DNA from: an uncultured Candidatus Saccharibacteria bacterium
GTDB lineage: Bacteria; Patescibacteriota; Minisyncoccia; Phycocordibacterales; JAKFXT01
Direction: 5' to 3'
Assembly (NCBI GenBank): GCA_964385825.1
Contig: CAYLPX010000002.1
Span: forward strand, 1,281-65,280
DNA length: 64,000 nucleotides
Positions within the stretch are counted from its first letter, which is position 1. Each line of letters opens with the position of its first letter. The notes beneath the pieces are model-generated. The model had not been told where the DNA came from. It ran no database searches and worked only from the letters and a program-made list of their open reading frames with translations. The position numbers and the translations under genes were made by a program. Below are positions 60,448 to 61,437 of this stretch, piece by piece.

Positions 60448-61437
60448 TTAAAGATTACTGGCAAAAGGAGGGTGATGTTCGTAGCCTATTGGGGAAAAGG
60501 TTATTTGAGTGAACTGTGAAAATACTTCAAGAGGAATCTTTTTATCAGGAAAAACATTTGGATTATGTACGAATATTACTTCTTTGGCGCTTGCGCTTTG
60601 CAAAACGGCATTTATAACATCTCTACCAAAGTAGATAATGCCACTTATTTCCTTAAAGTCATCTCTAGAAAAGAGATTTACGTCTATTGAATTAGTTCGC
60701 TGAGAATTTAAAATACTTTCCCTGGTTGTGTGAAAAGCTGGACCCAGGGTACCATCACTTTTAATTGGTAAATGTACTGCAGGACTAATTCCCCCCAAGG
60801 CCTCTAGTATTAATGCCTCTGGTGACGAAGCCCTGTCTCCATCTATATCCCCTGCATTTAATGCGATTACATAATAATCCCTTCCCCCCACTATAGTTTT
60901 ATGTTTACTAAAATAATTACTTAACTTATCCATAAGCACACTAGTTATACGTCTCACCTTTGGGTGATTGGCTTCGTCGAAAGATCTGTTACGTGACACT
61001 ATAGTCCCTGACGGAACCCCAGCAAGCATATCTGATATAGTTTCAACTGCGTTAGGGCCCTCCCCTTTTCCCGCACTAACAGCTTCAATAAACAAATTTC
61101 TATCTCCGATAGAAATCTTAAAATCAGGATTTGGGTCCTTTTTTGATTGTGCAATGATATTGAAAGACCCTTTCTTCAATAAATCAAACAAATACACTTC
61201 CCACGCTCTGTTAGTAAAATGAACTTGAAACTCAGTTATAAAATTAGTATCAGCAAAAGGCTTGTACTTACTCCAAATAGCATCAAAAAAAATTTTAACC
61301 GCGTGCCAATCAGGCCGCATGTGCACATTAAGATAAGCTACGTCAAGATTTGAATACTTCTTTATTAAAAACAGAAGTTCCTGATTATTTTGAGCGGGCT
61401 CAGGGGGTAGGGGGAAAAGTGTTGACATAGATAACAA
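60448..61437 (-). CDS. hypothetical protein (no recognisable family), AT-rich, adjacent to tRNA-Gly
   Basis: 329 aa soluble protein with no signal peptide. About 37% GC. Flanked by a tRNA and GC palindromes. Confidence 0.5.
   Translation of the reverse strand: MLSMSTLFPLPPEPAQNNQELLFLIKKYSNLDVAYLNVHMRPDWHAVKIFFDAIWSKYKPFADTNFITEFQVHFTNRAWEVYLFDLLKKGSFNIIAQSKKDPNPDFKISIGDRNLFIEAVSAGKGEGPNAVETISDMLAGVPSGTIVSRNRSFDEANHPKVRRITSVLMDKLSNYFSKHKTIVGGRDYYVIALNAGDIDGDRASSPEALILEALGGISPAVHLPIKSDGTLGPAFHTTRESILNSQRTNSIDVNLFSRDDFKEISGIIYFGRDVINAVLQSASAKEVIFVHNPNVFPDKKIPLEVFSQFTQITFSPIGYEHHPPFASNL

What the first reader, a model, noticed from the sequence alone, without database searches (positions are those of the whole stretch)
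60448..61437. Orphan AT-rich 329 aa gene of unknown family wedged between hup and tRNA-Gly
Its GC content, about 37%, is below the housekeeping average. It has no recognisable motifs and sits between a bidirectional terminator and a tRNA with repeat structures. This is the classic context of a horizontally acquired single-gene accessory function, for example an abortive-infection or defence protein. A possible PD-(D/E)xK-like stretch (PDFKISIGDRNLFIEAVSAGKG) is too weak to call.
Basis: inference. Interest (0 to 1): 0.5.

Follow-up and report, generated by a model that had tools for sequence, protein, structure and literature searches.

The report
Stray phage-defence-type nuclease gene
This is an accessory gene that a tiny-genome (Patescibacteria) bacterium picked up next to a tRNA gene; it encodes a stand-alone nuclease-fold protein distantly related to two E. 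coli proteins shown by experiment to block phages, so it is most likely an anti-phage defence gene, which is useful to know but not a new kind of system.

Summary
The ORF is real (60448-61437, minus strand; the likely start is the ATG at 61428, giving 326 aa). Its GC is 38.0% against 44.4% for the window, the lowest of 42 long ORFs. It lies between the hup bidirectional terminator and tRNA-Gly(tcc).

It is an accessory gene. clpP-rny-hup synteny holds in the sister Patescibacteria loci, but none of the 80 encodes a relative. In the closest species hup is followed by tRNA-Gly after 115 bp.

Pfam and NCBIfam find nothing. PADLOC hits PD-T7-5 (E 2e-17) and PD-T7-1 (E 6e-12). Profile-profile comparison with genuine members gives 98.8% and 98.3% probability over about 200 residues. 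Genuine members score 382 and 287 bits against 61 and 43 here, so this is a divergent sister clade, part of a superfamily of about 2,000 clusters.

The AlphaFold model is confident (pLDDT 93.6). The nuclease matches in the fold searches are all PD-(D/E)xK enzymes, and all are weak. Superfamily-invariant residues are E77, E115 and K168, and D102 is near-invariant.

Relatives lie in defence islands and R-M operons, and one is fused to HsdS.

Verdict: a probable single-gene defence nuclease, acquired horizontally. It is a new member of a known kind, of modest interest.

The parts
60448..61428 (-). Coding sequence of the 326-aa protein (stop TAA at 60448-60450). The maximal ORF starts three codons upstream at TTG 61437 (329 aa).
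   Evidence: ORF; identical protein P0001 is 326 aa; homologues start at MSxLFPL; same gene called on 18 metagenome contigs
61198..61203 (-). Codons W76-E77 in helix alpha1 (WEhYL motif). E77 is the candidate metal-binding acid of the nuclease core.
   Evidence: Invariant in 67 superfamily sequences, including genuine PD-T7-5 and PD-T7-1; helix 71-86 in the model; sequence read
61078..61128 (-). P101-D102 ... E115-A116-V117: the 'PD...ExV' beta-hairpin (strands 103-107 and 110-118). It has no Lys at the x+2 position.
   Evidence: conservation; strands; aligned to PDF/IEAT of PD-T7-5 and PDF/VEAV of PD-T7-1
60925..60951 (-). R160 ... K168 on the long helix 150-176. K168 is the only superfamily-invariant lysine and the candidate displaced catalytic Lys. 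R160 is conserved in at least 90% of sequences.
   Evidence: invariant K168, near-invariant R160; helix; codons cgt at 60951-60949 and aag at 60927-60925
60382..60426 (.). Bidirectional intrinsic terminator shared by hup (+) and the ORF (-). It is conserved base for base in the sister species that lacks the ORF.
   Evidence: I2: 18-nt arms, 100% complementary, 9-nt loop; alignment with L016
60430..61627 (.). Lineage-specific segment (ORF plus its 5' spacer) that fills the hup-to-tRNA-Gly gap. The corresponding gap is 115 bp in the closest species.
   Evidence: homology with L016 breaks at about 60430-60440; gap is 8 bp to 7.2 kb in 61 sister loci
61628..61699 (-). tRNA-Gly(tcc). The ORF starts 200 bp downstream of its 3' end on the same strand.
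61589..61608 (.). Perfect 20-nt inverted copy of the 3' end of tRNA-Gly, probably a scar of rearrangement or integration. In a read-through RNA it would out-compete the cloverleaf.
   Evidence: 0.11 copies expected by chance, 2 found; MFE -57.6 kcal/mol, z = -7.75; related repeats in L099 and L029
60094..60366 (+). hup (HU), the last gene of the conserved clpP-rny-hup block. It marks the left edge of the variable hotspot.

Best explanation
The gene encodes a stand-alone protein of about 326 aa. It has an N-terminal helical part, a restriction-endonuclease-like (PD-(D/E)xK) core, and a C-terminal beta-rich part. It belongs to a divergent sister clade of the PD-T7-1/PD-T7-5 superfamily of single-gene anti-phage proteins.

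It is an accessory gene. It was acquired horizontally (or retained very patchily) in a variable hotspot between hup and tRNA-Gly(tcc) of a Patescibacteria (Paceibacteria/Taylorbacteria-like) genome.

Proposed mechanism, which is inferred and not shown: E77, D102 and E115 bind Mg2+, and K168 (with R160) on the following helix supplies the positive charge that canonical enzymes take from the 'xK' lysine. The enzyme cuts nucleic acid, most likely invading phage or plasmid DNA. The non-core parts restrict activity to infection or to non-self DNA. No partner gene is needed.

Shown here: the ORF, its accessory distribution, homology to PD-T7-1/5, the confident fold model, the conserved residues, and the defence and R-M neighbourhoods of relatives.

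Inferred: nuclease activity, the substrate, the trigger, and the defence phenotype.
For: PADLOC hits PD-T7-5 (E 2.1e-17) and PD-T7-1 (E 5.7e-12).

hhalign of the family profile against a genuine PD-T7-5 (Aliivibrio pAWOD_1) gives probability 98.8%, E 4.9e-17, over residues 59-271. Against a genuine PD-T7-1 (Rts1) it gives 98.3%.

PD-T7-1 and PD-T7-5 are experimentally validated single-gene defences annotated 'Nuclease' (PMC9519451; PMC10952713).

E77, E115 and K168 are invariant, and P101, D102 and R160 are conserved in at least 90% of 67 diverse members.

The gene is absent from 80 of 80 sister loci, and the site is empty in the closest species. GC is the lowest in the window.

Relatives lie in several defence or mobile contexts:
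- a Burkholderiales island with a serine recombinase, an AAA_15/SMC ATPase, DndB and SNF2;
- beside HTH + PLD-helicase + MmeI-like MTase;
- between Type III Mod and Res, and overlapping the end of Type I HsdR;
- fused to HsdS in P0091.

The genuine PD-T7-5 relative sits next to Gabija and PDC-S51. No conserved partner gene was found.
Against: The match to the validated families is distant: 61 and 43 bits against 382 and 287 for genuine members. It covers only about profile positions 42-232 of 346, so function may have diverged.

No member of this sister clade has been tested.

The canonical (D/E)xK lysine is missing (V117). The spatial clustering of E77, D102, E115 and K168 could not be checked because model coordinates are not exposed.

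In the small-genome hosts the immediate neighbours are housekeeping genes, not defence genes.

The mechanism of PD-T7-1/5 is itself unknown.
Confidence: 0.6

Rival explanations
1. Selfish or homing-type nuclease, or leftover cargo of a tRNA-targeting integrative element. On this view the gene persists because it, or a lost integrase, promotes insertion at the 3' flank of tRNA genes, not because it defends the host.
For: In three independent gene families' worth of loci, the gene lies directly 3' of a tRNA on the same strand:
- window: tRNA-Gly, then 200 bp;
- L099: tRNA-Gly, then 272 bp;
- L100, L010 and L106: tRNA-Leu(gag), then about 165 bp.

Fragments of the tRNA 3' end lie in the spacers: a 20-nt inverted copy in the window, an 18-nt direct repeat in L099, and a 22-nt direct repeat in L029.

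The closest species carries a different variable HTH ORF on the other side of the same tRNA. PD-(D/E)xK domains do serve mobile elements (TnsA and R2 RLE appear among the weak hits).
Against: There is no integrase, transposase or terminal repeat pair around the ORF, and no distal att copy near hup.

Most contexts of relatives are not next to a tRNA.

The nearest characterised homologues confer phage resistance (PMC9519451).

Location next to a tRNA is also what is expected of any cargo landing in an integration hotspot.
Confidence: 0.12
2. Component or orphan of a restriction-modification system: a solitary restriction endonuclease, or an accessory nuclease that works with a methyltransferase encoded elsewhere.
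For: It has a restriction-endonuclease-like fold. Relatives are embedded between Type III Mod and Res, overlap the 3' end of Type I HsdR, are fused to HsdS, or lie beside Dcm or ParB-MTase genes.
Against: No methyltransferase lies within about 8 kb on either side in this genome. Most of the ~2,000 family representatives are stand-alone proteins of about 300 aa. Vassallo et al. argue the homologous E. coli proteins are not R-M, because no methylase accompanies them.
Confidence: 0.12
3. Housekeeping DNA repair or recombination nuclease of the host (RmuC-, YraN- or RecB-like).
For: It has the PD-(D/E)xK fold. It is located amid core genes (tig, clpP, rny, hup). Vassallo's HHpred listed a weak RmuC-like hit for PD-T7-1.
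Against: It is absent from 80 of 80 sister loci, including a species with 94-99% identical neighbours. There is no Pfam or NCBIfam match, RmuC included. GC is atypical. Only 24 close clusters were found among 5.8 billion proteins.
Confidence: 0.03
4. Decaying or non-functional remnant that is no longer expressed.
For: No promoter-like site or Shine-Dalgarno sequence was recognised upstream. There is no expression data. A strong hairpin lies between the tRNA and the ORF.
Against: The reading frame is intact and full length, with every superfamily-invariant residue retained. The protein sequence is identical on 18 contigs from several samples. Homologues at 46-65% identity are all full length. 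The gene has its own terminator.
Confidence: 0.08

Closest known systems
PD-T7-5 (E. coli UMB0934, RRM82777.1; PADLOC PDLC04110), Vassallo et al. 2022
   Same: Both are single-gene, stand-alone proteins of about 330-390 aa. The homologous core covers about 200 residues (hhalign 98.8%, 28% identity). The shared motifs are WELYL (E), PDF (D), hhEA[VT] (E), R...K on the next helix, and ISxVIY. Both are found on mobile or defence islands.
   Different: The ORF scores only 61 bits against 382 for a genuine member. The last third of the PD-T7-5 profile (positions about 235-346) and the ORF's first ~58 and last ~55 residues do not align. The host is a Patescibacterium, not a proteobacterium. No phenotype is known for this protein.
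PD-T7-1 (E. coli ECOR46, RCQ85672.1; PADLOC PDLC04073)
   Same: It has the same core (hhalign 98.3%). The nuclease segment that HHpred placed at PD-T7-1 residues ~170-219 lies within the stretch of the PD-T7-1 profile (positions 106-215) that aligns to ORF residues 17-129, which include the PD...E hairpin. It is a single-gene defence, stronger against T-even phages.
   Different: PD-T7-1 is about 450 aa, with an N-terminal extension of about 105 aa that the ORF lacks. The ORF scores 43 bits against 287 for a genuine member.
Classical PD-(D/E)xK nucleases (restriction endonucleases, Hjc, CdiA-CT toxins, Can2/NucC/HamA/SduA defence effectors)
phrog_8571 (PHROGs v4, unknown function)
   Same: The best HMM match outside PADLOC (E 8.5e-20, residues 35-269), which shows that relatives are carried by phages or prophages.
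   Different: The PHROG has no annotated function. No relative was found in 50,697 GenBank phage genomes or in IMG/VR contigs by the searches run.

Membership tests
PD-T7-5 (PADLOC PDLC04110) | Full-length, high-scoring match to the family HMM, as genuine members give | tested here: not met
   The ORF scores 61.3 bits over profile positions 42-232 of 346. The genuine Aliivibrio member scores 381.8 bits over positions 1-340 of 346.
PD-T7-5 (PADLOC PDLC04110) | Homology of the core domain | tested here: met
   hhalign probability 98.8%, E 4.9e-17, 192 columns, 28% identity. The motifs are shared.
PD-T7-5 (PADLOC PDLC04110) | Single-gene system without a conserved partner | tested here: met
   Neighbours of nine homologue loci share no similarity with one another (blastp). 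The ORF is flanked by its own terminator and a tRNA.
PD-T7-5 (PADLOC PDLC04110) | Confers resistance to phage when expressed | not testable with these tools
   This needs an experiment. It has been shown only for the E. coli proteins (PMC9519451).
PD-T7-5 (PADLOC PDLC04110) | Called by PADLOC or DefenseFinder under their official score and coverage thresholds | not tested
   Only raw hmmscan output is available. The tools' per-model cut-offs are not given.
PD-T7-1 (PADLOC PDLC04073) | Architecture of about 450 aa with an N-terminal extension of about 105 aa, and a full-length HMM match | tested here: not met
   The ORF scores 43.1 bits, residues 17-129 against profile positions 106-215 of 452. 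The Rts1 member scores 286.7 bits over positions 47-447 of 452. The ORF has no counterpart of profile positions 1-105.
PD-(D/E)xK phosphodiesterase superfamily | alpha-beta-beta-beta-alpha-beta core fold | tested here: met
PD-(D/E)xK phosphodiesterase superfamily | Catalytic D ... (D/E)-x-K signature | tested here: inconclusive
   D102 and E115 are conserved, but position x+2 is V/T/I, never K. The invariant K168 on the next helix could substitute. The geometry could not be measured because no coordinates are available.
RmuC family (PF02646) | Match to the Pfam RmuC model | tested here: not met
   No Pfam hit at E up to 10. Even for PD-T7-1 the HHpred RmuC hit was 36.7% probability.
Type II restriction-modification system | Adjacent cognate DNA methyltransferase | tested here: not met
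   The genes called within about 8 kb on both sides are tig, clpP, rny, hup, a trypsin-like protease, peptidase S51, UPF0102, a CCA-adding enzyme and TrmB. None is an MTase.
tRNA-integrated genomic island | Integrase gene plus direct repeats of the tRNA 3' end bracketing the insert | tested here: not met
   No integrase is present. The window holds only two copies of the tRNA 3' 17-mer, the tRNA itself and an inverted copy 20 nt away, and none near hup. Direct repeats exist in L099 and L029 but do not bracket the gene.
Dihydrofolate reductase (the name JGI gives the identical protein) | Match to a DHFR family model | tested here: not met
   No Pfam or NCBIfam hit of any kind. The name is a mis-annotation.

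The most novel reading that the evidence does not exclude
The ORF may represent a large, untested branch (about 2,000 clusters at 50% identity) of the PD-T7-1/5 superfamily. This branch has a non-canonical active site, with the Lys on the helix. In Patescibacteria it is repeatedly lodged directly 3' of tRNA genes, amid direct and inverted fragments of the tRNA 3' end and without any integrase. On the most novel reading it is a self-mobilising, tRNA-flank-targeting nuclease cassette, or a defence nuclease whose expression is coupled to tRNA read-through and processing, rather than an ordinary defence-island passenger.
Probability: 0.1. Interest if true: 0.6.

Novelty: new member of a known kind. 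Interest (0 to 1): 0.3.

Why it matters
Very few defence systems and almost no phages are known for Patescibacteria (PMC12366544). A plausible single-gene defence nuclease in a minimal genome adds a candidate to that short list.

The analysis also shows that the validated PD-T7-1 and PD-T7-5 proteins are two tips of a much larger, unannotated superfamily. That superfamily has no Pfam model and no solved structure. It has a clear set of invariant residues (E77, E115, K168, with D102 near-invariant) that make the still-unknown mechanism of these 'orphan DNase-like' defences directly testable by mutagenesis.

The hup/tRNA-Gly(tcc) junction emerges as a variable-content hotspot in Paceibacteria, which is useful for mining further accessory genes.

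Tried and rejected
- Pfam and NCBIfam scans of the ORF found nothing. Pfam on genuine PD-T7-5 and PD-T7-1 members and on other superfamily members also found nothing.
- PDB sequence searches, with the single protein and with the superfamily profile, found nothing meaningful.
- Foldseek against PDB and BFVD gave no hit at E below 1e-3. The afdb50 library was unavailable.
- tblastn against 50,697 phage genomes gave no match. The IMG/VR pattern scan found no relative.
- The search for related loci with the broader alignment A2 failed because no conserved stretch was available.
- An Rfam scan of 60300-61900 found only the tRNA.
- I searched for a conserved partner gene (antitoxin or immunity) among the neighbours of nine homologues and found none.
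- I searched for a distal att repeat near hup and found none.
- I tried to compare the ORF with the Patescibacteria defence proteins LdgA and DdgA, but their sequences are not held.
- The cluster look-up gave no accession or organism name.
- Housekeeping nuclease, DHFR and classical tRNA-island readings are rejected for the reasons given in the membership table.

Full report
**1. Observation**

An identical protein in the public collection (P0001) is 326 aa, and all close homologues begin MS(T/E)LFPL. The start is therefore most likely the ATG at 61428.

The ORF's GC content is 38.0% against a window mean of 44.4%. It is the lowest of 42 ORFs of 150 aa or more (z = -2.1), and only 1.7% of equal-size windows are as low.

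Downstream of its stop codon lies a perfect 18-bp stem with A and T runs on either side (60382-60426). This stem also terminates hup, which is on the opposite strand.

Upstream lies tRNA-Gly(tcc) at 61628-61699 on the same strand. Twenty nucleotides past the tRNA's 3' end there is a perfect 20-nt inverted copy of that 3' end. Two copies of the 17-mer were found in the window, where 0.11 are expected by chance.

**2. Host, and whether the gene is core or accessory**

I used the neighbouring RNase Y as a probe against one genome per species. This returned 80 loci, all from Patescibacteria (Paceibacteria, Taylorbacteria and similar).

tblastn finds clpP, rny and hup in nearly all of these loci (clpP and rny in all 80, hup in 77), in the same order in all but one (L084). 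It finds no relative of the ORF in any of them at E up to 1e-5.

In 61 loci the first tRNA after hup is tRNA-Gly(tcc), so the adjacency is ancestral. The gap between the two ranges from 8 bp to 7.2 kb.

In the closest species (L016) the neighbours are 99% (ClpP), 94% (RNase Y) and 97% (HU) identical, and the gap is 115 bp with no ORF. Nucleotide homology with the window runs perfectly through hup and its terminator and breaks at about 60430-60440, roughly 10-20 bp from the ORF's stop codon.

The gaps of other species hold a mix of accessory genes. These include TrmB-type regulators, dehydrogenases, kinases, an IS1595 transposase, Bro-N, a Type I specificity subunit, a Type II REase, and PADLOC candidate families PDC-S05, S07 and S13.

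The gene is therefore accessory and sits in a variable-content hotspot.

**3. Relatives and their contexts**

Only 17 clusters (single-sequence search) or 24 clusters (profile search) out of 5.8 billion are detectably related in the word-indexed search.

The exact protein occurs on 18 contigs, all with the window's synteny.

The closest homologue with readable context is P0003 (about 64% identical). It lies in a distant Paceibacteria relative (RNase Y 66% identical) at the same place: tRNA-Gly(tcc), then 272 bp, then the gene, then hup and rny. Three extra genes sit between the gene and hup.

P0007, P0008 and L106 follow tRNA-Leu(gag) by about 165 bp, after rplS.

Other relatives lie in clearly mobile or defence settings:
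- a Burkholderiales MAG island with an SMC/AAA_15 ATPase, RHH proteins, a serine recombinase, DndB, ParB_N and SNF2;
- next to HTH + PLD-helicase + MmeI-like methyltransferase;
- next to a ParB-methyltransferase;
- between a Type III Mod (625 bits) and a Res subunit;
- overlapping the end of a Type I HsdR;
- directly after a MutH/Sau3AI-like ORF.

The Burkholderiales protein is 67-70% identical to the proteins P0006-P0008, the two of which with readable records (P0007, P0008) come from groundwater metagenomes. That is closer than those proteins are to the window's ORF, so the gene appears to have moved between phyla (the hosts of those contigs were not identified).

No neighbour is conserved between loci, so the protein appears to act alone.

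**4. What the protein is**

Pfam and NCBIfam give nothing. The JGI name 'dihydrofolate reductase' is unfounded.

PADLOC gives PD-T7-5 (E 2.1e-17, 61 bits, residues 62-269) and PD-T7-1 (E 5.7e-12, 43 bits). PHROGs gives phrog_8571, of unknown function.

PD-T7-1 and PD-T7-5 are single-gene systems recovered by functional selection from E. coli isolates. They are annotated 'Nuclease', with weak Hjc, PDDEXK_5 and RmuC similarity at PD-T7-1 residues ~170-219 (PMC9519451). Reviews list them under PD-(D/E)xK (PMC10952713). Their mechanism is unknown.

To calibrate the scores I found genuine members on plasmids:
- Aliivibrio wodanis pAWOD_1 (339 aa) scores 381.8 bits, full length, on PD-T7-5. It lies beside an integrase, PDC-S51 and Gabija.
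- Proteus plasmid Rts1 (464 aa) scores 286.7 bits on PD-T7-1, near AbiJ and IS elements.

The window's ORF is thus a distant relative, not a bona fide member. Profile-profile comparison nevertheless establishes homology: 98.8% (E 4.9e-17) and 98.3% probability over about 190 columns.

An exhaustive profile search of 1.84 billion cluster representatives finds 1,979 relatives at E up to 1e-3 and 840 at E up to 1e-10. Nearly all are proteins of about 280-330 aa. Nine of ten sampled representatives hit both PADLOC models and the tenth hits PD-T7-1 only, at the same modest level as the ORF. One, P0091, is fused to a Type I HsdS specificity domain.

**5. Structure and active site**

AlphaFold2 with the 26-sequence alignment gives pLDDT 93.6 and pTM 0.92.

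Foldseek hits are non-significant but consist largely of PD-(D/E)xK enzymes: DdmD, McrC, Hjc, FokI, LmuA, Bax1 and the R2 endonuclease.

Across 67 diverse superfamily sequences, including the two genuine PD-T7 representatives, W76, E77, E115 and K168 are invariant (as is F5 near the N-terminus, which I do not interpret). P101, D102, G122, R160 and N289 are at least 90% conserved.

On the model these residues fall on helix 71-86 (E77), the start of strand 103-107 (D102), strand 110-118 (E115) and helix 150-176 (R160, K168). This matches the canonical order of acid on alpha1, PD on beta2 and E on beta3. The one departure is that the residue two positions after E115 is V, T or I, never K.

I infer that K168 is a displaced catalytic lysine. 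I could not verify the geometry because model coordinates are not exposed.

**6. Mechanism and rivals**

The best-supported reading (confidence about 0.6 for defence, higher for 'accessory nuclease-fold homologue of PD-T7-1/5') is a stand-alone Mg2+-dependent nuclease that limits phage or plasmid DNA. The clade-specific N- and C-terminal parts would provide target discrimination or activation.

The rivals are:
- a selfish tRNA-flank-targeting nuclease or the cargo of a decayed integrative element. This is suggested by the recurrent position 3' of tRNA genes and by fragments of the tRNA end in the window, L099 and L029. Against it, there is no integrase and no bracketing att repeats;
- an R-M component or orphan. 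Relatives do sit inside R-M operons, but no methyltransferase lies within 8 kb here;
- a housekeeping repair nuclease, essentially refuted by the distribution;
- a dead remnant, which is unlikely given the intact frame, the retained invariant residues and the identical copies on 18 contigs.

**7. Novelty and score**

This is a divergent new member of a known kind of single-gene, PD-(D/E)xK-type defence protein. It lies in a phylum where few defences are known (PMC12366544).

The useful by-products are the definition of a large unannotated superfamily around PD-T7-1/5 with a testable invariant-residue set, and a variable hotspot at hup/tRNA-Gly in Paceibacteria.

A specialist would not be surprised by the main finding, so interest is about 0.3.

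The unexplained 20-bp tRNA-end hairpin would out-compete the cloverleaf in a read-through RNA (-57.6 kcal/mol, z = -7.75). Together with the recurrent tRNA-flank position, it leaves a small chance (about 0.1) of something more unusual.

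Noticed in passing
window 61589-61648 (and L099:593-786, L029:14904-15228): A perfect 20-nt inverted copy of the tRNA-Gly(tcc) 3' end lies 20 nt downstream of the tRNA. A read-through RNA would fold into a 20-bp hairpin (-57.6 kcal/mol, z = -7.75) instead of the cloverleaf. Related loci carry direct repeats of the same tRNA end (18 nt in L099, 22 nt in L029) and shorter inverted fragments, with no integrase nearby.
   Followed up: partly
window 60366-61628 compared with L016-L095: The hup -> tRNA-Gly(tcc) junction is a variable-content hotspot in Paceibacteria. The gap is 8 bp to 7.2 kb in 61 species. Its contents include TrmB regulators, an IS1595 transposase, Bro-N, HsdS, a Type II REase and PADLOC candidate families PDC-S05, S07 and S13.
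   Followed up: partly
L016:12063-12737 (-): The closest sister species lacks the ORF. It carries a different lineage-specific 224-aa ORF abutting the 5' side of the same tRNA-Gly, with an N-terminal resolvase-type HTH and a 'LGIGLYIGEGSK' motif reminiscent of LAGLIDADG. That ORF is absent from the window.
   Followed up: partly
window 61710-61729: A 20-nt perfect GC-rich palindrome (CCTGCCTGCCGGCAGGCAGG) lies just upstream of the tRNA-Gly 5' end, between the tRNA and the divergent trypsin-like protease gene. Its function is unknown.
   Followed up: no
P0091 (722 aa, from the representative search): A natural fusion of a Type I R-M specificity (HsdS, Methylase_S) module to the ORF-like domain (residues 424-720). 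This is a 'Rosetta-stone' link between this nuclease family and sequence-specific DNA recognition.
   Followed up: partly
L110:2173-10685 and L115:1730-5849: Distant relatives (27-28% identity) are embedded in R-M operons. One lies between a Type III Mod and a Res subunit that itself carries a TnsA-like endonuclease C-terminus. Another overlaps the 3' end of a Type I HsdR gene.
   Followed up: partly
window 61816-63909 compared with L016: The genes to the right of the tRNA (trypsin-like protease 72% identical, peptidase S51 68%) are much more diverged from the closest species than those to the left (ClpP 99%, HU 97%, RNase Y 94%). The window's tRNA-Gly is also closer to those of more distant species (L019, L027: 95-96%) than to L016's. 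This hints at recombination at this junction.
   Followed up: no
P0001 (identical to the window protein): JGI/IMG names this protein 'dihydrofolate reductase'. No DHFR or any other Pfam or NCBIfam model matches, so this is a mis-annotation that could propagate.
   Followed up: yes
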